7,015 bases of DNA from an uncultured Gammaproteobacteria bacterium (GTDB lineage: Bacteria > Patescibacteriota > Patescibacteriia > UBA2591 > UBA6264), in contig CAZDOL010000014.1 of NCBI GenBank assembly GCA_964507075.1, forward strand, positions 5,094 through 12,108, given 5' to 3'. The position numbers and the translations under genes are program-made. Below the pieces are notes generated by a model, which was not told the DNA's origin, ran no database searches, and saw only the letters and a program-made list of their open reading frames with translations. Shown in pieces: positions 37 through 6,856 of this stretch (its first letter is position 1; every line of letters begins with the position of its first letter).

Positions 37-555
37 ATGTTTAATAAGAAATATTCCAATAGCAAGGCTTTCACTATTATAGAAATGATGGTAGTTTTAG
101 GCATTACAGGTCTTCTGGCCGCTCTGTTAATAGCTAATATGCATTCTGGAGGAGAGGGAATGGATTTGACTTCTGAGGCGCAGAAATTAGGAGTGGTTAT
201 TCGCCAAGCCCAGATGATGGCATTGGCTGGTAAGCAAATTAATTTGAGCCGCCCGGCTTATGGTTACGGTGTTTACATTGCTTCCATGTCTTATAAGCTT
301 TTTGCGAATGATTATGATGGGGCTTCTTATTTATATGATGATGGTGATGATACAATCATTCAGTCTTTTTCTTTTCCCGATAATATAGAAATGAAGGTTC
401 CTGCAGCTGCTTTCTCTATTATTTTTACACCTCCATTAGGCGAGATAGAAGCTTCTGTTGCTCTTCCACTATATGTTACACTAACCCATGTGCCAATTAA
501 TTTAAGTAGATTTCTAAAAATTACTTCTTATGGAGAAGTTGATATTTATAAATAA
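37..555 (+). CDS. Prepilin-type N-terminal cleavage/methylation protein; GspH/FimT-FimU-like minor (pseudo)pilin
   Basis: The ORF track gives 13..555 from a TTG. The first ATG, at 37, yields MFNKKYSNSKA|FTIIEMMVVLGITGLLAALL: a short basic leader, F at +1, E at +5 and a ~20-aa hydrophobic helix, which is a class III (prepilin) signal. It has Ala rather than the usual Gly at -1. The following LTSEAQKLGVVIRQAQMMAL resembles the GspH/FimT helix. Stop is TAA at 553-555. The start is ambiguous (13 or 37). Confidence 0.8.
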   Translation: MFNKKYSNSKAFTIIEMMVVLGITGLLAALLIANMHSGGEGMDLTSEAQKLGVVIRQAQMMALAGKQINLSRPAYGYGVYIASMSYKLFANDYDGASYLYDDGDDTIIQSFSFPDNIEMKVPAAAFSIIFTPPLGEIEASVALPLYVTLTHVPINLSRFLKITSYGEVDIYK

Positions 556-1090
556 AAAAGGTCAGAGTTTAATTGAATCAGTGGTAGCTATTTCTATTGT
601 GGTTATTGCCGTGGTAGGCATTATGTCTGTTGGGTTAACCAGCATGAGTTTAGGTGGACAATCAGAGGAAAGGGTTGTGGCTATTAATTTAGCGCGAGAA
701 GGCATAGAAATTGTTTCTGCCACTCGTAATAGCAATCTTTTGGACCCAGAACAATCTTGGCCTTATGGATTAACCATTGGTTCATATAGGGTTGGATTTG
801 ATCTAGCTGGTTTAGTTATGGGTGCGGATGCTGAATTTGATGGAGGCACTACTGTGGAATATTGCACCAATTGTCGCCTTTGTCAGGATGCTGCTGCTGA
901 ATATTATTATCACAATGATAGTTGCTCTACATGGAGTCCTTTTTATAGATTAGTTGTTATTTCTGCTGGTGATGATTTGGGCGGGAATTGTGATGATTGC
1001 GAAAAAAAGATTATTTCTTCTGTTTATTGGGAAGAGAGGGGCAAAGCGCATACCATTAGCTTTGAAACTCGTTTTACTGATTGGAGATAG
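530..1090 (+). CDS. Prepilin-type minor pilin, PilV/GspI-like, Cys-rich C-terminal half
   Basis: MEKLIFINKKG|QSLIESVVAISIVVIAVVGI has G at -1, E at +5 and a hydrophobic helix. It overlaps the upstream gene by 26 nt, suggesting operon coupling. VVAINLAREGIEIV resembles PilV-type minor pilins. Six Cys lie at aa 112-157 (CxxCxxC...C...CxxC). Stop is TAG at 1088-1090. Confidence 0.8.
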   Translation: MEKLIFINKKGQSLIESVVAISIVVIAVVGIMSVGLTSMSLGGQSEERVVAINLAREGIEIVSATRNSNLLDPEQSWPYGLTIGSYRVGFDLAGLVMGADAEFDGGTTVEYCTNCRLCQDAAAEYYYHNDSCSTWSPFYRLVVISAGDDLGGNCDDCEKKIISSVYWEERGKAHTISFETRFTDWR

Positions 1091-1092
1091 AG

Positions 1093-1135
1093 ATTGGGTA
1101 ATTGGGTACCTAGGTGCTCGGGTAATCAGGTAATT
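1093..1135. repeat. G-rich repeat arm, copy 1 (attgggta x2 followed by gggtacctaggtgctcgggtaatcaggtaatt)
   Basis: Positions 1104-1135 are 30/32 identical to 2133-2164. Positions 1096-1122 are 22/27 complementary (ungapped) to 1513-1539. The arm lies between the ORF2 stop (1090) and the ORF3 ATG (1143). Confidence 0.85.
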
Positions 1136-1142
1136 AAAAATT

Positions 1143-2129
1143 ATGTCAACAGGTTTAGATAATTTAGAAATATATAAATTAGCTGAGAAGCTGGAAGTTT
1201 TTATTTATAAACTGAGTAAAAAATTTCCAGATGACGAAAAATATCGCACAGTTGACCAACTAAACAGATCATCTTCTGCTGTTTCTAACAACATTGCTGA
1301 AGGATATGGTAGATATTCTTTTCAAGATAAAATAAATAAATTTTATATTGCTCGAGGCGAAGCTGAAGAAACGCGGAAAGGTATAAACAAAAGCCATAAG
1401 AAAGGTTTTGTTTCTGTAAAAGAAGCTGATTTGTGTGATAAAAATTATACACAATTGATAAAACAGATTAATGCTTATATTAATTTTTTACGTCGTCAGC
1501 AAAATCCCAATCCCCAAGTACCCAAGTACCCAAGTACCCACAATAAGGGTTTCACCCTTATTGAACTTATGGTTTCTTTGGGTATTTTGGTTGTGGTTAT
1601 TCTTTCGGCTATGGGTATTTATTTGCGGGTAATTGGAACCAGAGAGCAATCTTTGGGAGACCTTAATATTCAAGAAGAAGGGCAATATATTATGGGTTTG
1701 ATAGTTAAGGATATTCGGGCTGGGCAGATTGATTATAGTTCTTATGTGGGGGATTTGGATGAGCCCGAAGATGATCTTATGCTTCTGGATTCTTCTAGCG
1801 ATGAGATTAGATACAAGAGTGATTTGGCTGGTAGTGGAAGTTGTACTCAAAATAGGTGTGTTTTAAAAAAATGCAAAGGACTGATTGTTGATGATTATTG
1901 TGACGATGATAATAATTATGAAGACATTACTATGACTGACATTAGTATTGAACGATTGGATTTTTATATCAACCCAACAAGCAATCCTTTCACAGCCGGT
2001 TCGGAAAGCTATAATCATCCCCATGTCACTATTATTTTAGAGCTTAAATCTTTAGTAGCAAAAAGTGCCACTACAGCTGAAGTCGTTCTTCAGCAAACGG
2101 TTTCCCAAAGATACACAAAAAGAAAATAA
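1143..2129 (+). CDS. In-frame fusion: four-helix-bundle protein (23S rRNA intervening-sequence protein / Avd-like family) + PilW/GspJ-like prepilin
   Basis: aa 1-~120 carry hallmarks of the four-helix-bundle family and its normal full length (LEIYKLAEKL..., SSSAVSNNIAEGYGRYSFQDKINKFYIARGEAEE, ...QINAYINFLRR). No stop follows. aa 121-135 (NPNPQVPKYPSTHNK) are encoded by a nucleotide repeat. Then comes G136|F137TLIELMVSLGILVVVILSAMGI, a textbook prepilin cleavage/methylation motif with E at +5, followed by QEEGQYIMGLIVKDIRAGQ (PilW/GspJ-like). No in-frame ATG/GTG/TTG exists between 1488 and 1551. Confidence 0.75.
   Translation: MSTGLDNLEIYKLAEKLEVFIYKLSKKFPDDEKYRTVDQLNRSSSAVSNNIAEGYGRYSFQDKINKFYIARGEAEETRKGINKSHKKGFVSVKEADLCDKNYTQLIKQINAYINFLRRQQNPNPQVPKYPSTHNKGFTLIELMVSLGILVVVILSAMGIYLRVIGTREQSLGDLNIQEEGQYIMGLIVKDIRAGQIDYSSYVGDLDEPEDDLMLLDSSSDEIRYKSDLAGSGSCTQNRCVLKKCKGLIVDDYCDDDNNYEDITMTDISIERLDFYINPTSNPFTAGSESYNHPHVTIILELKSLVAKSATTAEVVLQQTVSQRYTKRK
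1502..1540. repeat. C-rich repeat arm, copy 1 (aaatcccaatcccc + cccaagta x3.5)
   Basis: Its first 23 nt (aaatcccaatccccaagtaccca) are identical to 2236-2258. An 8-nt unit cccaagta is tandemly repeated at 1513-1520, 1521-1528 and 1529-1536, with a partial copy at 1537-1540. It is the approximate reverse complement of the G-rich arm. It is translated as NPNPQVPKYPST inside ORF3. Confidence 0.85.
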
Positions 2130-2132
2130 GTC

Positions 2133-2164
2133 GGGTACTTAGGTACTCGGGTAATCAGGTAATT
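2133..2164. repeat. G-rich repeat arm, copy 2
   Basis: gggtacttaggtactcgggtaatcaggtaatt is 30/32 identical to 1104-1135. It starts 4 nt after the ORF3 stop. Confidence 0.85.
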
Positions 2165-2205
2165 AGTTATTTATTAGAATAATTAGAATAATTTTACTAT
2201 GTCAT

Positions 2206-2967
2206 ATGTTATTAGATATATTTTTAAAAAAATTTAAATCCCAATCCCCAAGTACCCAATCCCCAAGCAACCAGTCTATCTCTTTAATTATCACAGTTCT
2301 TATTATTTCTTCTATTTTGGTTAGCACTATTACTGTTGGAGATGTTATGATTAGACATAGTCAAACAGTGAAAAGCTCTGAGGTTTCAGAAATTGCTTAT
2401 TTTGCTGCGGAAAGCGCTTTAGAAAAAGCGAGTTATGGAATTTTAAAGAATTACGATAATGTTTCTTCTTATACTTTAAGTGGCAGTATGACCAACACCG
2501 CGAAATACGAGGTTACTGATGTTAGTTTAGACAACAGGACTCCTTTAATTCCTTTTGAAGTGACCTTAGGAGCAGGCGAATCTTTTGAATTAGCATTAGA
2601 TTTTAATGGCACAAATATTTATCCACTAATTTTAAACATTGACCAAACAGCTTCTGTTTCAACAGATTTAATCATTTATGAATGTCTGACCATTGCTGTG
2701 CCTCCGCCTCCTCGTGTTTGCGATTCAGGATATACTCAGACATTTGTTTCTTCCTTGCCTTATAATTTAAGCATTTCAGAAGAGACAAAATATTATAAAA
2801 TTCGCATCAATAACTTGGATGCATCTGATTCAGAAACATATACCTTAACCCCAAGCGCGGACAATATTCCCGTAGGAGTTGACATCACTGCAAAAGGGGT
2901 TTATGGGGGATATGAAAGGCAAGCTAAGAGCAGTTTTCCCAAATGGCAGACTTTTGGAACTGACTAA
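2206..2967 (+). CDS. PilX/GspK-like pilus assembly protein (N-terminal TM helix, no Glu5)
   Basis: MLLDIFLKKFKSQSPSTQSPSNQS-ISLIITVLIISSILVSTITVG is a basic leader plus one hydrophobic helix lacking E at +5, as in GspK/PilX. The later SEIAYFAAESALEKASYGI resembles the conserved A-x-x-AE-x-G/A helix of PilX N-terminal domains. It is fourth in an H-I-J-K-like gene order. Stop is TAA at 2965-2967. The ATG lies inside the AT-rich spacer of a repeat pair. Confidence 0.7.
   Translation: MLLDIFLKKFKSQSPSTQSPSNQSISLIITVLIISSILVSTITVGDVMIRHSQTVKSSEVSEIAYFAAESALEKASYGILKNYDNVSSYTLSGSMTNTAKYEVTDVSLDNRTPLIPFEVTLGAGESFELALDFNGTNIYPLILNIDQTASVSTDLIIYECLTIAVPPPPRVCDSGYTQTFVSSLPYNLSISEETKYYKIRINNLDASDSETYTLTPSADNIPVGVDITAKGVYGGYERQAKSSFPKWQTFGTD
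2236..2268. repeat. C-rich repeat arm, copy 2
   Basis: aaatcccaatccccaagtacccaatccccaagc shares a 23-nt identical core with 1502-1524. aagtaccc (2250-2257) is the perfect complement of gggtactt (2133-2140). It is translated in ORF4 as KSQSPSTQSPS, a different reading frame from copy 1. Confidence 0.85.
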
Positions 2968-3038: not shown

Positions 3039-3338
3039 ATGTCTTTGCCTGGATTTTTACAATCATGTTTTTGGGATGTGGATTTTGATAAGCTGAACCC
3101 CCAAGAATATCCTTATTTTGTCATAGAAAGAATTTTAGAATATGGAAATAAAAAAGACATAGGTTGGTTGGCTAAGAATTTCCCTAAAAACACAGTTAAA
3201 GAGACAATTATTAGTTCTCGTTTTCTTAGCCCCAAAAGCACTAATTTTTGGGCTTTGGTTCTTAATTTAGATAGAGATAAGGTTTTATGTTTGAAAAAGT
3301 CATCAACGAAAAAACAAAACAAAATTTGGTCACATTAA
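3039..3338 (+). CDS. Small conserved hypothetical protein (99 aa)
   Basis: A clean ORF with its own upstream TGnTATAAT box and a downstream hairpin. The N-terminal FWDVDFDKLNPQEYPYFVIERILEYGNKKDIGWL...SRFLSPKSTNFWALVL looks to me like a widespread small protein family of unknown function. I recall it being catalogued as a DUF (possibly DUF6922) but cannot verify that here. The antisense ORF 3113..3322 is its shadow. Confidence 0.6.
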   Translation: MSLPGFLQSCFWDVDFDKLNPQEYPYFVIERILEYGNKKDIGWLAKNFPKNTVKETIISSRFLSPKSTNFWALVLNLDRDKVLCLKKSSTKKQNKIWSH

Positions 3339-3346
3339 CTAATCAG

Positions 3347-3378
3347 TGAAGTGTTGAAGTCAGACTTCAACAACTTTA
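3347..3378 (+). terminator. Stem-loop 9 nt downstream of the small ORF (possible terminator or processing site)
   Basis: gttgaagtc-a-gacttcaac (3353-3371) is a perfect palindrome. It is extendable, with one bulge, to 3347-3378 (~14 pairs). Only a short T tract (ttt) lies at its 3' side, so it is not a classical intrinsic terminator. Confidence 0.3.
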
Positions 3379-3451: not shown

Positions 3452-3477
3452 TTTCAGAGCGTCACTTTTGGGGGACA

Positions 3478-3507
3478 GTCCCCTTTAATAAAGTCCCCTT
3501 TAATAAA
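3478..3507. repeat. 15-nt perfect tandem duplication (gtcccctttaataaa x2)
   Basis: Direct reading shows 3478-3492 identical to 3493-3507, ending 7 nt before the ATG at 3515. It is preceded by the palindrome ggggac-a-gtcccc (3471-3483). Confidence 0.9.
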
Positions 3508-3514
3508 AAGATTT

Positions 3515-6013
3515 ATGAATAACTCGCAAAATATAAAATCTTTGTTTTCTGAATTTAGTCGAGTTTGTTTTAAGTCAAAGTTTAACTTTTGGCTTTTTTT
3601 CTTTATTTTCCTTTTTTTATGTTCCAATGTTCCAATGTTCCAATGTTCTAATGTTTTAGCTTGGACTCCGCCACAAAGTCCTCCGCCTCAAGATAATGTT
3701 CCTCAGCCTTTGAACACAGGACCAACCGCGCAAGGCAAAACAGGCAGTTTGGGTATTGGCACAGATACTCCAACAGTAAAATTAGATGTTTTGGGGATTA
3801 TAGAATCTACTGGAGCTATTACCAGCGGAGGACGAATTACTGGTACTGAATTTTATGATTATCTAGGCGGTTATCTTGACCCTGGTTCTAGTGGTATATC
3901 TCTCTATGTTCTAGGTTCAATTACTGCCACTGGAACAACTGATGATAATTATTTTTTGGGTAACTTGGGAATTGGGACCACAGTTCCAGACACACTTTTA
4001 ACAATAGCCAATGATAATTGGATATCAGCAAAAGATAATGCTGGTACAAGCTATGTAAATATGTTTAAAGTTAATGCTTCTGATGAAATAGATGTAGGAG
4101 GAACTTTAAATGTTGGACCCATAGATTTAGCAGAAGATTCAGGAGCAATTACTCTTGTTAATCTGCCTGTGAGCTCAACTCCAAGTGATGGAGATATTGA
4201 AAGTTATGGTTTTAGCATTGATTCAAATCCCGTTTTAACAATTTATGGATTAGCAGATGGAATAGGAGGTGCTGACACGCATAGAATAGGTATTGGAACA
4301 ACGTCTCCGCAACACAAATTAGATGTTCGCGGTGAGGTTGCTGTTGGCGTGGCTGGCGCGACAAATCAAATTCATTTTGTTGCCGATCCTACTGCCGACA
4401 CAGACGTGGCAACAAAGGGATATGTTGATGGCGCGGGATATTGGGGAGTAACTGGCTCTTATCTTTATCCAACTAATCTTAATTATTTGGTTGGCATAGG
4501 CATTGCTACCCCGAGCGCTAAATTAGAAATTGATGGTGGTGTTCGCGCTTCAGAAGATATTATGACTGATACAGAATTAAAAGTTGGGGCGAATACATGG
4601 ATTGGCACTTTAAGTGCTCAGATTGTAGGGAATTTAGGATTGATAGATTCGGGTGATTTAACTGTAGCGGGTGAGGGTTTTTTTGATGGCGAAGGGGACA
4701 GTTATTTTTTGGGTAATTTGGGAATTGGGATTAGCGCGCCAACAAAGGGCAAATTAGAGGTAGATGGCAATATTGCTATTGGCGGTTCTAATAATGAATT
4801 AAGATTTTATGAAGGAGTAAATTATGTAGGTTTTGAGGCGCCCGCTTTAACAGCTGATAAAATATGGGTTTTACCAAGCATAGATGGCTCAAGTGGACAG
4901 GTAATAAAAACCGATGGCGCTGGAAATTTAAGTTGGATTAGCCATAATGGCTTAGATGGATTGGACGGCGGGACCACTAATGAATATTATCATCTTGATA
5001 ACACCGATTATACTGCTTTAAGTGACGCCAATGCTCAATTAGGAGATTTACAAACAGACGGTTCTCCAAGTTTTAATGGTTTAACAATTGGTACATTATC
5101 TGGGGTTTTAAAAGCAACAACGGGTGTTGTGTCTGGTAGTGCCACGATGGATGATATTGATGACGGGACAACTTATGTCAGAAGCCATAACGACTTCACA
5201 GATATTTATAAAGGATATTTAAACCAGGGAGTAAGAGATATTGATGACCCGATTTTTGCGGGGTTAACTGTTGATACTGATACTATTTATGTTGATAGTA
5301 CAAATCATTTCGTCGGTATCGGAACGACGGAGCCAGGGTATGAATTAGATGTTCAGGGGACGATTTATACTACAGGCTTTTATTTAAATGATGGTAATGC
5401 CACCGCAGGCAAAGTTTTGGTGTCCGCTAATACATCAGGGCTTGCCTATTGGCAAGCCCTTGGTACAATCTCTGGCATCACATGTGATGAGGCTGGCAGT
5501 TGTAGTTCAAATTATATTCCCAAATTTATTACTTCAAGCACTGTCAATGATAGTATAATTTACGAATCTGGTGGGCAAATTGGCATCGGGACTGTGATTC
5601 CACAAGCAAAATTACATGTTGACGGAAGCATTAAATCTACCAGTTTAGAAACAGGCGGACTTAAAGTAACAGATAGCCCAGGTCTTAATAAAGTTTTAAC
5701 TGATTTAGATGGAGCAGGCACAGCAGTTTGGACAGATGTTTCAGGTGGCGCTGATAACGATTGGGTAATAGTAGGCACAGATTATATATATAATTACGAT
5801 TCATTAAATAGAAGCGTTGGAATTGGGACAACGAATCCGGGAACTGCTAAACTGGCTGTTATGAACGGCAACGTCGGTATTGGCACGACAACTCCAAACG
5901 CAAAACTACAGGTGAAAGCTGCCGTTGCAGAGGCAATTGTTGAATTTACAGATGATGACGGCACTGATGTAATGCAAATTGATGCCAACGGCAATGTTAT
6001 AATTTCGTTATAG
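3515..6013 (+). CDS. Large secreted tail-fibre-like repeat protein (putative surface fibre/adhesin)
   Basis: The ORF is open from TTG 3395. ATG 3515 gives MNNSQNIKSLFSEFSRVCFKSKFNFWLFFFIFLFL...VLA|W, a signal-peptide-like N-terminus, then a Pro-rich linker (TPPQSPPPQDNVPQP). Nine copies of the motif (L/V)GIG(T/I)xxPxxKLxVxG follow, at ORF-track aa 119, 191, 297, 365, 441, 639, 728, 807 and 826. Three copies of G-x-V-(L/I)-x-x-D/N-x-x-G-x-x-x-W are also present (SGQVIKTDGAGNLSW, AGKVLVSANTSGLAYW, NKVLTDLDGAGTAVW). This composition is typical of phage tail-fibre-like and bacterial fibre proteins. Stop is TAG at 6011-6013. Confidence 0.85.
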   Translation: MNNSQNIKSLFSEFSRVCFKSKFNFWLFFFIFLFLCSNVPMFQCSNVLAWTPPQSPPPQDNVPQPLNTGPTAQGKTGSLGIGTDTPTVKLDVLGIIESTGAITSGGRITGTEFYDYLGGYLDPGSSGISLYVLGSITATGTTDDNYFLGNLGIGTTVPDTLLTIANDNWISAKDNAGTSYVNMFKVNASDEIDVGGTLNVGPIDLAEDSGAITLVNLPVSSTPSDGDIESYGFSIDSNPVLTIYGLADGIGGADTHRIGIGTTSPQHKLDVRGEVAVGVAGATNQIHFVADPTADTDVATKGYVDGAGYWGVTGSYLYPTNLNYLVGIGIATPSAKLEIDGGVRASEDIMTDTELKVGANTWIGTLSAQIVGNLGLIDSGDLTVAGEGFFDGEGDSYFLGNLGIGISAPTKGKLEVDGNIAIGGSNNELRFYEGVNYVGFEAPALTADKIWVLPSIDGSSGQVIKTDGAGNLSWISHNGLDGLDGGTTNEYYHLDNTDYTALSDANAQLGDLQTDGSPSFNGLTIGTLSGVLKATTGVVSGSATMDDIDDGTTYVRSHNDFTDIYKGYLNQGVRDIDDPIFAGLTVDTDTIYVDSTNHFVGIGTTEPGYELDVQGTIYTTGFYLNDGNATAGKVLVSANTSGLAYWQALGTISGITCDEAGSCSSNYIPKFITSSTVNDSIIYESGGQIGIGTVIPQAKLHVDGSIKSTSLETGGLKVTDSPGLNKVLTDLDGAGTAVWTDVSGGADNDWVIVGTDYIYNYDSLNRSVGIGTTNPGTAKLAVMNGNVGIGTTTPNAKLQVKAAVAEAIVEFTDDDGTDVMQIDANGNVIISL
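3619..3658. repeat. 8-nt tandem array (atgttcca x3, then atgttcta, atgtttta) inside the signal-peptide coding region of the fibre gene
   Basis: Units lie at 3619, 3627, 3635, 3643 and 3651. They encode CSNVPMFQCSNVL. The unit length is not a multiple of 3, and each unit carries an ATG, so ATGs fall in all three frames. Confidence 0.9.
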
Positions 6014-6032
6014 AAAAATAAAAAAACTGAAG

Positions 6033-6089
6033 TTGACCTCTAACGTTAACCCTAGAGGTTAACTAATCTAAGAGGTTAACTAATCTAAG
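6033..6089. repeat. REP-like hairpin element upstream of the RAYT gene plus 17-nt tandem duplication
   Basis: ttgacctctaacgttaaccctagaggttaac (6033-6063) forms a stem of acctcta (6036-6042) with tagaggt (6053-6059), plus a G-T pair 6035/6060 and a 10-nt loop. gaggttaactaatctaa is repeated at 6056-6072 and 6073-6089. The 18-nt core ttgacctctaacgttaac recurs at 6807-6824. Confidence 0.85.
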
Positions 6090-6107
6090 ATAAATTAGTG
6101 AGTTAGT

Positions 6108-6830
6108 ATGCGAAAAGAACAAATTTTAATAGATGATTTAGTTCATGTCTACAATCGCGGTAGTCGTAAAATGCCTATTGTTTATGATGAGGCTGATAAA
6201 TGGAGGTTTTTAAAAAGTTTATATTATCTCAATGACGAATATGCTCCTGCGAATATTTTTCAACATTTAAAATCGAATATACAACTTGGGAAATATCGCA
6301 ATTTTGAGAGACCAAAAGACTGGCCAGCTTCACGACCATTGGTTAAAATTTTGTCTTATTGTTTAATACCTAATCATTTCCATCTACTTTTAAGGAAAAT
6401 TACAGAAAATGGAATTAGTAAATTTATGGCAAGATTTAGCAATAGTTTTACAAAATATATTAATATTAAGCACGATATGTCTGGTAGATTGTTTCAATGT
6501 TCTTATCAGTCAAAGTTGGTAAAAACCGAAAAAATGTTATGGTACACAGATGCGTATATTCAAGTTTTTAACCCATTTGAACTTTATCCTGGCGGTTTGG
6601 AAAAAGCGACAAAAGAATTTGATAAAGCTTTTAAATTTGCTTTAGAATATCCGTTTTGTAGCTTAGGTGAAAGTTTTGGCAAAAGAAATTTGCATATTAT
6701 TGACAGAGATGTTTTGGGCAAGGTATGGTCTAATATAGCAGAGTATAAAGAATTTGCGCAAGAAGTTATAATATATTACAGTAATAGTAATAGAAAAGTT
6801 TGCAAATTGACCTCTAACGTTAACGTCTAA
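6108..6830 (+). CDS. HUH / Y1 single-strand DNA transposase-like protein (RAYT, REP-associated tyrosine transposase / IS200-like TnpA)
   Basis: It carries HVYNRG near the N-terminus and an HUH motif in YCLIPNHFHLLL (H90-F-H92, nt 6375-6383). It also has GRLFQCSYQSKLV and a catalytic-Tyr motif AYIQVFNP (Y150, nt 6555-6557). These are the conserved blocks of the COG1943/Y1_Tnp family. The stop (TAA 6828-6830) and the last ~8 codons (KLTSNVNV) lie inside the right flanking repeat. Confidence 0.85.
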   Translation: MRKEQILIDDLVHVYNRGSRKMPIVYDEADKWRFLKSLYYLNDEYAPANIFQHLKSNIQLGKYRNFERPKDWPASRPLVKILSYCLIPNHFHLLLRKITENGISKFMARFSNSFTKYINIKHDMSGRLFQCSYQSKLVKTEKMLWYTDAYIQVFNPFELYPGGLEKATKEFDKAFKFALEYPFCSLGESFGKRNLHIIDRDVLGKVWSNIAEYKEFAQEVIIYYSNSNRKVCKLTSNVNV

Positions 6831-6850
6831 GGTTAACCCTAGAGGTTAAC
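6807..6850. repeat. REP-like hairpin element at the 3' end of the RAYT gene
   Basis: ttgacctctaacgttaac-gtctaaggttaac-cctagaggttaac is the same element as 6033-6063 with a 13-nt internal insertion, in the same orientation. It contains the 10-bp palindrome acgttaacgt (6817-6826) and the 8-bp palindrome ggttaacc (6831-6838). The outer stem is 6809-6816 with 6840-6847. Confidence 0.85.
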
Positions 6851-6856
6851 TTCAAA

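What the first reader, a model, noticed from the sequence alone, without database searches (positions are those of the whole stretch)
1143..2129. A complete four-helix-bundle (23S rRNA-IVS / Avd-like) protein is translated as a 136-aa 'leader' of a prepilin
Seen directly: a full-length four-helix-bundle module (aa 1-~120, with NIAEG and IARG motifs) has no stop codon. It reads through a 15-aa repeat-encoded linker into KG|FTLIELMV, a canonical prepilin peptidase site with Glu at +5, and then into a PilW/GspJ-like pilin body. No in-frame ATG/GTG/TTG lies between nt 1488 and the cleavage site at 1551, so the pilin has no start of its own. Established knowledge: prepilin leaders are normally about 5-30 aa and sit on the cytoplasmic face. 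The four-helix-bundle family is otherwise known from ORFs inside 23S rRNA intervening sequences and as the Avd accessory protein of diversity-generating retroelements. Inference, option (a): this is a genuine fusion in which prepilin peptidase would release a soluble cytoplasmic four-helix-bundle protein stoichiometrically with pilin maturation. Option (b): a cassette insertion captured or replaced the pilin start. Option (c): the transcript is processed at the flanking arms. I know of no described pilin with a folded domain as leader.
Basis: partly seen in the sequence, partly recalled or inferred. Interest (0 to 1): 0.85.

Follow-up and report, generated by a model that had tools for sequence, protein, structure and literature searches.

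The report
Pilin gene led by inserted cassette protein
In an uncultured ultra-small (Patescibacteria) bacterium, a small hairpin-flanked gene cassette replaced the start of a pilus-subunit gene, so the subunit is read with a whole 120-residue folded protein as its throw-away leader; this recurs in related bacteria and is about five times longer than any described pilin leader.

Summary
ORF 1143-2129 encodes 328 aa: a four-helix-bundle (4HB) domain (PF05635, E 2e-26), a 16-aa linker encoded by an 8-nt repeat arm, then KG|FTLIELMV (N_methyl) and a pilin body. It has no internal ATG/GTG/TTG after nt 1455.

It is not an assembly accident. The identical protein occurs on at least 21 contigs from independent assemblies.

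Comparison explains it. An "empty" orthologous operon has a 15-aa leader (MYFENKKLKNRNKES|F). A 4HB cassette flanked by inverted 8-nt-repeat arms replaced that leader and start codon.

The same architecture recurs:
- on the orthologous pilin in relatives with 66-86% identical pilin bodies;
- on other pilins of the operon;
- as in-frame deletion remnants;
- in about 11 distant 50%-identity clusters with different 4HB classes and arms.

Both halves are under purifying selection (Ka/Ks 0.06-0.19). A prepilin peptidase gene lies three genes upstream. Cleavage releasing a free 4HB is the likely outcome, but it is inferred.

One near-identical contig has two instead of three repeat units. There the 4HB ends at a stop (131 aa) and the pilin has no start. 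This could be an on/off frame switch, but it rests on a single variant.

I found no published description. I rate it a new variant of known kinds.

The parts
1091..1137 (+). Left arm of the cassette. It has 8-nt periodicity (GGGTAATT GGGTACCT AGGTGCTC GGGTAATC AGGTAATT) and starts directly after the TAG stop of the upstream pilV-like gene. Its last unit may supply a weak ribosome-binding site (AGGT, 12 nt before the ATG).
   Evidence: (D3, I2). The RNA duplex with the right arm is -37.2 kcal/mol, z = -3.4 against shuffles.
1143..1502 (+). Four-helix-bundle domain (aa 1-120) of the PF05635 / TIGR02436 family. Its ATG at 1143 is the only canonical start for the whole 328-aa ORF.
   Evidence: PDB 2gsc, E 1.6e-9; helices 9-27, 33-52, 60-81, 93-120. 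Ka/Ks is 0.06-0.14 between fused copies.
1500..1541 (+). Right arm, complementary to the left arm. It is free of stop codons in all three forward frames and is translated as the linker QNPNPQVPKYPST. It contains a perfect 8-nt array (1513-1540; CCAAGTAC x3) whose copy number sets the reading frame.
   Evidence: (D4, I2). The variant L096 with two units is shown.
1542..1550 (+). The last three leader codons, AAT AAG GGT (N-K-G). They are probably the only remnant of the native leader. Gly136 is the -1 residue of the predicted prepilin peptidase site.
   Evidence: (the native leader in L011 ends ...RNKES|F).
1551..2129 (+). Mature minor pilin (192 aa plus stop). It has FTLIELMV with Glu+5, a long alpha1 helix and a beta-sheet head. 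It is the third gene of a four-gene minor-pilin set, the position held by PilW/GspJ.
   Evidence: 56 orthologues, mostly 195-225 aa. One search gives pLDDT of about 88 for this half. One search is a weak Xcp pseudopilus match. Ka/Ks is 0.10-0.30.
37..555 (+). Minor pilin 1 (GspH/ComGC-like), leader MFNKKYSNSKA|FTIIEM. In another strain (L008) this gene is the one that carries the 4HB cassette.
530..1090 (+). Minor pilin 2 (PilV-like), leader MEKLIFINKKG|QSLIES. In L008 its orthologue has a left arm, a new ATG, the last 4HB helix and a (VPNPQ)n arm as its leader.
   Evidence: (P0095).
2130..2166 (+). A second left-arm-type repeat (94% identical to 1104-1136), with no 4HB gene behind it. It lies between the pilin stop and the next gene.
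   Evidence: (D3, D8).
2206..2967 (+). PilX-like fourth gene. Codons 11-23 (KSQSPSTQSPSNQ; nt 2236-2274) are a right-arm-type repeat. They replace RIKLIYSDDKKA of the empty locus L011.
   Evidence: (D4). In another genome this gene carries a full 4HB fusion (P0100/L097).

Best explanation
What it is. A mobile or recombining '23S-rRNA-IVS-like' cassette has replaced the native 15-aa leader and start codon of the third minor prepilin of a Patescibacteria type IV pilus operon. The cassette consists of a left arm, a four-helix-bundle gene and a right arm. The arms are inverted tracts of 8-nt tandem repeats.

Why it fuses. This cassette's right arm has no stop codon in any frame, and its unit number (3) keeps the frame. 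The 4HB ORF therefore runs straight into ...NKG|FTLIELMV.

How it most likely works:
- Translation starts at the cassette's ATG (1143).
- The 4HB folds in the cytoplasm.
- The hydrophobic alpha1N segment inserts N-in/C-out, like any class III signal.
- The operon's own prepilin peptidase cuts after Gly136.
- This yields a normal mature minor pilin and a free 136-aa 4HB protein in 1:1 ratio.

Why it is tolerated. The leader is discarded anyway. That makes prepilin 5' ends a 'safe harbour' where such cassettes and their remnants accumulate.

Shown versus inferred. Shown here: the insertion origin, the recurrence, frame maintenance, purifying selection on both halves, and the presence of the peptidase gene. 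Inferred: translation as one chain, cleavage of so long a leader, and any role of the released 4HB.
For: - Domain content and lack of an internal start.
- The exact sequence occurs in at least 21 independently assembled contigs.
- The empty orthologous operon L011/L012 has 8 nt between the pilV-like stop and its own ATG, and the leader MYFENKKLKNRNKES|F.
- The same fusion sits on the orthologous pilin in L007/P0002 (pilin body 86% identical) and L013 (66%).
- The 4HB Ka/Ks is 0.06-0.14 and the pilin Ka/Ks is 0.10-0.19. Ks values are of similar order (0.62 vs 0.78; 0.88 vs 1.35), consistent with joint inheritance.
- In-frame deletion remnants still use the cassette ATG: P0037/L009, P0097 and P0095/L008 gene 2.
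- A cassette 82% identical is fused to a different pilin (gene 1) in L008. A 4HB is fused to the gene-4 orthologue in L097.
- About 11 further 50%-identity representatives carry PF05635 + N_methyl + a pilin body. Their 4HB classes and arm sequences differ.
- Leader lengths of 122 class III proteins are bimodal: 91 are 20 aa or shorter and 12 are longer than 100 aa.
- In 80 genome loci with 4HB cassettes, the only open frame longer than 190 aa is a pilin fusion.
- The A24 prepilin peptidase gene is three genes upstream (L001 4942-5694).
- The AF2 model shows four helices, a disordered linker at 121-138, then a pilin alpha1 helix and beta-sheet.
Against: - There is no direct evidence of translation, of cleavage, or that a prepilin peptidase accepts a 136-aa folded leader. 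Described leaders are 6-26 aa (PMC4471445).
- The 4HB half of the model has low confidence (pLDDT about 50).
- The conserved arm pairing would, if cut as in rRNA IVSs, destroy the fused message.
- A same-strain contig with two repeat units uncouples the ORFs, so the fused state is not universal.
- Internal initiation at TTG 1431/1455 cannot be excluded from sequence alone.
- Most 4HB cassettes are stand-alone: 120 of the 120 top profile hits listed and 79 of 80 genome loci.
Confidence: 0.68

Rival explanations
1. Repeat-number frame switch (phase variation). The perfect CCAAGTAC x3 tract in the leader-coding arm slips. With n = 0 mod 3 the pilin is ON, as a 4HB fusion. With other n the 4HB ends at a stop and the minor pilin is OFF. 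This would make the locus a contingency switch, like the CTCTT repeats in the leader-coding region of Neisseria opa genes (comparison from my own knowledge). It is compatible with the best explanation and adds a regulatory layer to it.
For: - L096 is the same strain (1 SNP in 3.5 kb) and differs by exactly one 8-nt unit. Its 4HB becomes a 131-aa ORF ending at TAA, and the pilin has no start before Met+7.
- The frame logic was computed for n = 0-6.
- Other non-triplet octamer tracts sit in leader or signal-peptide coding regions: TGTTCCAA x4.6 at 3619-3655, and arm-encoded leaders in many orthologues.
Against: - Only one variant contig stands against at least 21 with three units.
- Predicted products for n = 0, 1, 4, 5 and 6 are absent from a collection of 15 billion proteins.
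- Three units is a short tract for frequent slippage.
- Related fusions have degenerate or triplet-compatible (15-nt) repeats (L007, L008).
- The variant could be a fixed null allele or an assembly error.
Confidence: 0.25
2. Selected functional fusion. The 4HB (an Avd-like, probably nucleic-acid-binding protein) is tethered to minor pilins on purpose. It might be delivered to, or released at, the pilus or DNA-uptake machine. Alternatively it might hold the minor pilin back until PilD acts.
For: - Long persistence with strong purifying selection on the 4HB.
- In one distant group (P0119, P0196, P0203, P0219, P0222) the fused 4HBs are 53-64% identical to each other. They are at most 49% identical to any stand-alone 4HB in hand, while their pilin bodies are only 36-47% identical. 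This suggests old, retained fusions.
- All fusions found are to pilins.
Against: - Closely related species do without it (L011/L012, L008 gene 3).
- Remnants show it is readily lost.
- Unrelated selfish-type genes occupy the same niche. P0118 has a GIY-YIG domain as leader. L013 has a PDDEXK_3 cassette between pilin genes.
- The stand-alone comparison set was biased toward the window's 4HB class.
- Purifying selection on the 4HB is also expected for an autonomous selfish cassette.
Confidence: 0.2
3. RNA-level excision. The arms form an RNase III-type stem as in 23S rRNA intervening sequences. The transcript is cut there, and the 4HB and pilin are expressed from separate RNAs.
For: - The arms pair (28 nt, 82% complementary). 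The region folds at z = -6.0 and the duplex at z = -3.4.
- Every cassette examined has its own mutually complementary arms with a different sequence, which is covariation at the level of whole cassettes.
- The family is known from rRNA IVSs (PMC11270868).
Against: - After such a cut the pilin fragment has no start codon, canonical or near-cognate, between 1480 and 1551.
- The 4HB fragment would have no stop codon.
- L008 gene 1 and L013 have weak or rearranged stems yet keep the fusion.
- No Rfam family matches.
Confidence: 0.07
4. Dead gene or artefact. The insertion inactivated the pilin, which is now a pseudogene. Alternatively the fused frame is an assembly error in an 8-nt repeat.
For: - One contig with a different unit count exists.
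- The leader is far outside the described length range.
Against: - The pilin body Ka/Ks is 0.10-0.30 against five orthologues, fused and unfused.
- The orthologous fusions have different linkers.
- At least 21 independent contigs are identical through the repeat.
- The 24-nt repeat is much shorter than the reads or the k = 141 assembly k-mers (inference from contig names).
- The full operon is conserved around it.
Confidence: 0.04

Closest known systems
23S rRNA intervening-sequence ORFs / 'four helix bundle protein' cassettes (PF05635, TIGR02436; PDB 2gsc)
   Same: - The domain is the same.
- The layout is the same: a roughly 120-aa ORF enclosed by two complementary arms that can form a long stem.
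- The family is also found in rRNA insertions of CPR bacteria and has no known function (PMC11270868).
   Different: - It sits in a pilin operon, not in rRNA.
- The ORF has no stop codon and continues into a host gene.
- The right arm is translated.
- The arms are built of 7-8-nt tandem repeats.
Type IV prepilins / class III signal peptides processed by A24 prepilin peptidase (PilD)
   Same: - The site has Gly-1, Phe+1 and Glu+5, followed by a hydrophobic alpha1N segment of about 21 residues.
- It matches the N_methyl models, and the predicted fold is a pilin fold.
- It lies in a minor-pilin operon next to PilD.
   Different: The leader is 136 aa with a folded domain, against 6-26 aa of hydrophilic peptide in described systems (PMC4471445). 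'Modular pilins' described so far carry their extra modules at the C-terminus (PMC8179133, title and abstract), not in the leader.
Avd, the accessory four-helix-bundle protein of diversity-generating retroelements
   Same: - It belongs to the same fold superfamily.
- Some distant fused 4HBs also hit the bAvd-like model; P0119 scores 44 bits against a cutoff of 40.
- A DGR-like module lies about 8 kb downstream on the longer contig L002 (FGE-sulfatase/C-type-lectin target gene plus reverse transcriptase).
   Different: - The window's 4HB does not hit the bAvd model at E < 0.01.
- It is not adjacent to the reverse transcriptase.
- No template or variable repeat link was examined.
Phase-variable surface-protein genes with non-triplet repeats in the leader-coding region (e.g. 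Neisseria opa CTCTT repeats; from my own knowledge)
   Same: - A non-triplet tandem repeat lies in the part of the gene that encodes a cleaved leader.
- The unit number decides whether the mature protein is in frame.
- One natural allele differs by one unit.
   Different: - There are only 3.5 units.
- Only one alternative allele was seen.
- The repeat is also one arm of a cassette hairpin.
- The 'off' state still yields a complete 4HB protein.
Inteins / self-splicing introns as 'harmless' insertions in host genes
   Same: Conceptually similar. A selfish insert stays in an essential reading frame because it is removed after expression, and it recurs at conserved sites of a gene family.
   Different: Removal would be done by a host protease at a pre-existing signal-peptide site, not by the element itself. 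No homing nuclease activity is known for the 4HB. This is an analogy only.

Membership tests
PF05635 / TIGR02436 four-helix-bundle (23S rRNA IVS protein) family | Sequence match above the curated cutoffs | tested here: met
   PF05635 scores 92.7 bits against 33.8. TIGR02436 scores 89.4 bits against 24. PDB 2gsc matches at E 1.6e-9.
PF05635 / TIGR02436 four-helix-bundle (23S rRNA IVS protein) family | Four-helix secondary structure | tested here: inconclusive
   The AF2 DSSP assignment gives four helices (9-27, 33-52, 60-81, 93-120). However, pLDDT for this half is only about 37-76.
PF05635 / TIGR02436 four-helix-bundle (23S rRNA IVS protein) family | Stand-alone ORF of about 110-140 aa with its own stop | tested here: not met
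   There is no stop until 2129. All 120 listed top profile hits and 79 of 80 genome loci are stand-alone. The 2-unit allele L096 is stand-alone at 131 aa.
IVS-like cassette (ORF enclosed by complementary arms) | Inverted arms flanking the ORF that can form a long stem | tested here: met
   Arms 1095-1122 and 1513-1540 are 82% complementary. The duplex is -37 kcal/mol with z = -3.4. Nine stand-alone relatives and two distant fusions each have their own complementary arms.
IVS-like cassette (ORF enclosed by complementary arms) | Location inside an rRNA gene and excision by RNase III | tested here: not met
   The location is between two pilin genes, and there are no rRNA or Rfam hits. Processing itself is not testable with these tools.
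Type IV prepilin (class III signal peptide) | Small residue at -1, Phe/Met at +1, Glu at +5, and a hydrophobic stretch of about 21 aa | tested here: met
   The sequence is KG|FTLIELMVSLGILVVVILSAMGIYL. N_methyl scores 30.7 bits against 21.2, and TIGR02532 scores 23.8 against 16.3.
Type IV prepilin (class III signal peptide) | Short hydrophilic leader (6-26 aa; up to about 30 in type IVb) | tested here: not met
   The leader is 136 aa and contains a folded domain. Among the 122 class III proteins collected here, 91 have leaders of 20 aa or fewer.
Type IV prepilin (class III signal peptide) | Cognate A24 prepilin peptidase and other pilins in the locus | tested here: met
   Peptidase_A24 + A24_N_bact gene at L001 4942-5694. 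Three further pilin-like genes are present.
Type IV prepilin (class III signal peptide) | Actual cleavage and N-methylation at Phe+1 | not testable with these tools
   This needs proteomics or heterologous expression.
PilW / GspJ minor (pseudo)pilin | Family-model match or a clear fold match | tested here: inconclusive
   No equivalog model reached its cutoff. The Foldseek top hit is a chain of the XcpGHIJK pseudopilus model at E 0.057 and TM 0.29/0.45. Being third of four genes fits the position.
DGR accessory protein Avd | bAvd-like model match and adjacency to a DGR reverse transcriptase with template and variable repeats | tested here: not met
   The window protein has no bAvd hit. The reverse transcriptase and FGE-sulfatase genes lie about 8 kb away on L002. 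TR/VR were not examined.
Phase-variable contingency locus | Non-triplet tandem repeat within the coding region whose unit number toggles the frame | tested here: met
   A perfect 8-nt x 3.5 array. Only n = 0 mod 3 keeps the pilin in frame.
Phase-variable contingency locus | Multiple unit-number alleles within or between populations of one strain | tested here: inconclusive
   One 2-unit allele was found (L096). Products of n = 0, 1, 4, 5 and 6 are absent from the protein collection. Read-level data are not available.

The most novel reading that the evidence does not exclude
In Patescibacteria, prepilin leaders may be a dedicated landing site for hairpin-flanked selfish cassettes (4HB, GIY-YIG, PDDEXK_3). 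The host prepilin peptidase would then act as a protein-level 'splicing' enzyme: it frees an Avd-like cytoplasmic protein stoichiometrically with each minor pilin. The non-triplet repeat arm would double as a slip-strand switch. That switch toggles between 'free 4HB / pilin off' and 'fusion / pilin on', giving these episymbionts phase-variable pilus tips.
Probability: 0.2. Interest if true: 0.88.

Novelty: new variant of a known kind. Interest (0 to 1): 0.72.

Why it matters
- Substrate rules. If the preprotein is made and cleaved as predicted, prepilin peptidases accept leaders about five times longer than any described, including a folded domain. That changes what counts as a class III signal peptide in annotation pipelines. 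It also suggests a natural design for releasing a cytoplasmic cargo on membrane insertion.
- The 4HB family. This very abundant family has no known function. Here it gains a second, well-defined genomic niche besides rRNA, and its expression is tied to a known promoter and operon.
- Genome evolution. The finding shows how streamlined CPR genomes tolerate selfish cassettes: they are parked in sequence that is thrown away after translation.
- Pilus biology. Type IV pili are central to the episymbiotic lifestyle of Patescibacteria (PMC11623550, abstract). A repeat-controlled on/off state of a tip minor pilin would therefore matter biologically.

Tried and rejected
- Two scans of metagenome contigs aimed to count repeat-unit alleles. 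One used a variable-gap pattern across the arm and one an exact 33-mer downstream of it. Both returned nothing, so that collection evidently lacks these samples. This closed the allele-count route.
- Exact look-ups of the predicted products for 0, 1, 4, 5 and 6 repeat units were all absent.
- A broad 30-sequence 4HB alignment was too diverse for the search for related loci. A 12-sequence one worked.
- The profile search with the 4HB alignment listed only stand-alone proteins, so it could not give a domain-architecture census.
- Rfam at a permissive E-value gave only chance-level eukaryotic hits.
- Promoter and terminator scans were at shuffle level, with no signal inside the cassette.
- The second arm pair (2130-2274) does not fold better than shuffles (z = -0.95). 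I first read its loop as donating the ATG of gene 4. I rejected that because the empty locus L011 has a similar N-terminus (MLNAFFKK...).
- Foldseek against PDB gave no significant match for either half.
- Four literature searches found no description of 4HB-pilin fusions or of the repeat arms.
Full report
**1. The observation**

The window is AT-rich and carries a row of four pilin-like genes on the + strand: 37-555, 530-1090, 1143-2129 and 2206-2967.

ORF 1143-2129 encodes 328 aa. Its features are as follows.
- Pfam places 23S_rRNA_IVP (PF05635) at aa 7-111 (E 2e-26) and N_methyl (PF07963) at aa 133-156.
- NCBIfam gives TIGR02436 'four helix bundle protein' (E 1.6e-25) and TIGR02532.
- The cleavage motif reads KG|FTLIELMV, with Glu at +5.
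- The last in-frame ATG/GTG/TTG before it is TTG at 1455. Nothing beyond ATT 1479 could start translation, even as a near-cognate codon.
- An AlphaFold model shows four helices (9-120), a disordered stretch (121-138), a 55-residue alpha1 helix and a beta-sheet head. The pilin half is confident (pLDDT about 88) and the 4HB half is not (about 50).

**2. Not an artefact**

The identical 328-aa product is called on at least 21 contigs from separate ENA and JGI assemblies. It is also on record from NCBI, Logan and GEM. Six fetched contigs match the window at 99.99-100% over all 7015 nt, including every repeat tract.

On the longer contigs a prepilin peptidase gene (A24_N_bact + Peptidase_A24) lies three genes upstream. 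The gene order is PilD, pilin 1, pilin 2, [4HB-pilin 3], pilin 4.

**3. Anatomy of the insert**

The 4HB ORF is enclosed by two arms.
- Left arm, 1091-1137: five 8-nt units of the type GGGTAMYT. It starts immediately after the TAG of the upstream gene.
- Right arm, 1500-1541: its complement, including a perfect CCCAAGTA array of 3.5 copies.

The arms pair over 28 nt at 82% complementarity. The 481-nt region folds with z = -6.0, and the arm duplex alone is -37 kcal/mol (z = -3.4). The right arm has no stop codon in any forward frame, whereas the left arm has several.

**4. What the neighbours show**

The pilin body has 56 relatives in the 90% clusters, nearly all 195-225 aa and from Patescibacteria.
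- *Empty site.* L011/L012 (GCA_053986565.1, GCA_053985555.1) have the same operon. There, 8 nt separate the pilV-like stop from an ATG, and the leader is MYFENKKLKNRNKES|FTLIEL. In the window everything between that stop and the last three leader codons (NKG) has been replaced by arm-4HB-arm.
- *Same fusion in relatives.* L007/P0002 (pilin body 86% identical, 4HB 92%) and L013, a GTDB species representative (66% and 79%), each have a different linker.
- *In-frame wrecks.* P0037/L009 keeps the left arm, the cassette ATG, 26 codons of 4HB helix 1 and a stub of the right arm, then S|FTLIEL. P0097 is similar. P0095/L008 gene 2 keeps the left arm, an ATG, the last 4HB helix and a (VPNPQ)n arm in front of the pilV-like pilin.
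- *Other pilins of the operon.* In L008 a cassette 82% identical to the window's is fused to pilin 1 (332 aa), while that strain's pilin 3 has a short leader, MLNCYFVKLNKG|F. In L097 a 4HB is fused to the orthologue of pilin 4. A different, stand-alone 4HB sits in front of L097's pilin 3. That 4HB ends at a stop and is followed by a new ATG. The right arm then encodes the leader MKSKCYNVKMLHCYNSRCG|F.

**5. Breadth**

A full HMMER pass over 1.84 billion 50%-identity representatives with the 328-aa protein returned many further fusions. These include P0096, P0104, P0119, P0186, P0196, P0203, P0210, P0219, P0222, P0231 and P0100. Pfam confirms PF05635 in all 11, plus N_methyl in all but P0096 and P0100. 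P0100's partner is the PilX-like gene-4 orthologue.

Two of these were inspected at DNA level. L093 is from a JGI metagenome. L094 is from GCA_036171515.1, with the operon T2SSF, pilin, PilD, pilin, pilin, [4HB-pilin]. They have arms of entirely different sequence: AAAACCC-type 7-mers in one and GGATTTAG-type in the other. In both cases the arms are again mutually complementary (duplex z = -3.8 and -5.0).

Ninety-one have 20 aa or fewer and 12 have more than 100 aa. Eleven of those 12 are 4HB leaders.

One protein, P0118, uses a GIY-YIG domain as a 94-aa leader. L013 has a PDDEXK_3 cassette with its own repeats wedged between pilins 1 and 2.

Conversely, fusion is rare for the 4HB family as a whole. 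All 120 listed top profile hits are stand-alone. Of 80 genome loci with 4HB cassettes, only the pilin fusion L013 has an open frame longer than 190 aa. Nine stand-alone relatives all have complementary 8-nt-repeat arms. Most of their right arms contain TAA, which ends the ORF.

**6. Selection**

Nei-Gojobori estimates between fused copies:

| Region | Ka/Ks | Ks, window vs L007 | Ks, window vs L013 |
|---|---|---|---|
| 4HB domain | 0.06-0.14 | 0.62 | 0.88 |
| Pilin body | 0.10-0.19 | 0.78 | 1.35 |

Both halves have therefore been kept as working proteins over a substantial divergence. This excludes a decaying pseudogene. It is consistent with the fusion being inherited as a unit within this group.

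The same 4HB lineage (62-83% identical) also sits on pilins 1, 3 and 4 in different genomes. So it also moves or is copied within the operon. A simple route, which I infer and did not test, is recombination anchored in the arms on one side and in the conserved FTLIE(L/M)-coding DNA on the other. That would also explain why the junction always falls a few codons before +1.

**7. A natural frame variant**

P0001 is a 186-aa 'pilin' that starts at Met+7. It led to contig L096 (JGI 3300005645). This contig is the same strain, with one SNP in 3.5 kb, but has two CCAAGTAC units instead of three. The 4HB then ends at TAA after ...QVPKYPQ (131 aa, P0356), and the pilin has no start and no cleavage site.

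Computation for n = 0-6 units shows the pilin is in frame only when n is a multiple of 3. It does not meet the other half: a separate pilin start. It therefore argues that the fused frame is how this pilin is expressed.

Whether it is a phase-variation switch is open. There is one variant contig against at least 21, and products of the other unit numbers are absent from the protein collection. Read-level data could not be reached.

**8. Mechanism, with its status**

*Shown:*
- A cassette replaced the native leader and start.
- The pilin depends on the cassette's ATG and on frame continuity through the arm.
- Both halves are conserved.
- A peptidase gene is present.

*Inferred from established type IV pilin biology (PMC4471445):*
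- The leader stays cytoplasmic.
- Alpha1N inserts via SRP/Sec.
- PilD cuts after the small -1 residue on the cytoplasmic face.

A cytoplasmic domain N-terminal to such a segment is topologically unproblematic, so cleavage would release a free 4HB and a normal mature pilin. In this lineage the -1 residue is G, A or S, in native leaders as well.

*Unknown:* what the 4HB does. The family is uncharacterised (PMC11270868) apart from its relative Avd.

RNA cutting at the arms, as for rRNA intervening sequences, cannot produce either protein from this allele. It remains possible as a negative regulator.

**9. Comparison and novelty**

The thing works like an ordinary prepilin with an extraordinary leader. 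It also looks like an rRNA-IVS cassette outside rRNA.
- It passes the sequence tests for both families.
- It fails the 'short leader' feature of prepilins.
- It fails the 'stand-alone ORF' and 'in rRNA' features of IVS proteins.
- It is not demonstrably an Avd: there is no bAvd hit and it is not next to the reverse transcriptase that lies about 8 kb downstream on L002.

I found no paper describing 4HB-pilin fusions, domain-sized prepilin leaders or these repeat arms. I rate it a new variant of known kinds, with fairly high interest because it is recurrent, conserved and directly testable.

Noticed in passing
window 3619-3655 (tract 3604-3663): An 8-nt tandem repeat, ATGTTCCA x4.6, lies in the N-terminal, signal-peptide-like coding region (…FLFLCSNVPMFQCSNVLA|WTPP) of the large 792-872-aa repeat-rich surface protein (ORF to 6013). 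The same octamer encodes the leaders of orthologous pilins in other strains: CSNVPMFQCSN in P0006, P0011, P0024 and L013 gene 1, and CSNIQISPCSN in L011 gene 1. It resembles the right arm of the L097 cassette. It could be a cassette footprint or a second frame-switch tract. All seven same-strain contigs have the same count.
   Followed up: partly
window 2130-2166 and 2236-2274: This is a second pair of arm-type repeats without a 4HB gene. The left-type copy is intergenic. The right-type copy is translated as residues 11-23 of the PilX-like protein. The pair brackets that gene's ribosome-binding region and start codon but does not fold better than shuffles (z = -0.95).
   Followed up: partly
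L096 2300-2346 (equivalent to window 1513-1540): A same-strain contig from another sample has two instead of three CCAAGTAC units. This separates a 131-aa 4HB from a start-less pilin.
   Followed up: yes
window 6108-6830, with repeats at 6027-6090 and 6801-6851: An IS200-like / REP-associated tyrosine transposase (Y1_Tnp) gene is enclosed by its own palindromic repeats (GTTGACCTCTAACGTTAACCCTAGAGGTTAAC). Similar Y1_Tnp genes flank the pilin operons in L001, L011 and L097 (two copies). A link to mobilisation of hairpin-flanked cassettes is conceivable but was not examined.
   Followed up: no
L002 9913-12129: A module resembling a diversity-generating retroelement lies about 8 kb downstream of the window's pilin. 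It has an FGE-sulfatase/C-type-lectin-fold protein (303 aa), a 90-aa ORF that looks GIY-YIG-like by eye (not scanned against Pfam), and a reverse transcriptase (RVT_1) on the opposite strand. No Avd gene was seen in the fetched part. Template and variable repeats were not searched.
   Followed up: no
P0118 / L099 4001-4879: This prepilin has a 94-aa leader that is a GIY-YIG nuclease domain (…KSGAG|FTLIELLV). It sits in the same operon position after PilD and two pilins. So a second kind of small selfish-type gene is used as a pilin leader.
   Followed up: partly
L013 1206-1712 and 1790-1895: A PDDEXK_3 (PD-(D/E)XK nuclease) cassette is inserted between pilin 1 and pilin 2. Its direct repeat of about 50 nt (…ATTCGTTGTATTCGCATGTTATTCGTAGATTCGCATTACAAT) encodes the leader MLFVDSHYNAQ|SLIETIV of pilin 2.
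   Followed up: no
L013 2422-2483: Here a left arm is followed directly by a right-arm-type repeat, forming a local hairpin, before the 4HB ATG. A second right arm follows the 4HB, so right-arm repeats flank the 4HB in direct orientation. That is a substrate for deleting the gene by recombination.
   Followed up: no
window 3039-3338 and 3352-3375: A DUF6922 gene (99 aa) is followed by a perfect hairpin (GTGTTGAAGTCAGACTTCAACAAC) and then a 15-nt direct repeat (AGTCCCCTTTAATAA x2, 3477-3507). This region lies upstream of the large surface-protein gene.
   Followed up: no
window 3743-5913: The large surface protein contains a recurring roughly 47-nt / 16-aa motif (G-x-IGIGTxxPxxKLxV) at irregular spacing, with at least four copies. 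It has no Pfam or NCBIfam match.
   Followed up: no
P0195 (316 aa): This pilin orthologue has a 133-aa leader with no Pfam match, ending …KCSAG|FTIMETIM. It is either an unknown domain or a translated intergenic region.
   Followed up: no
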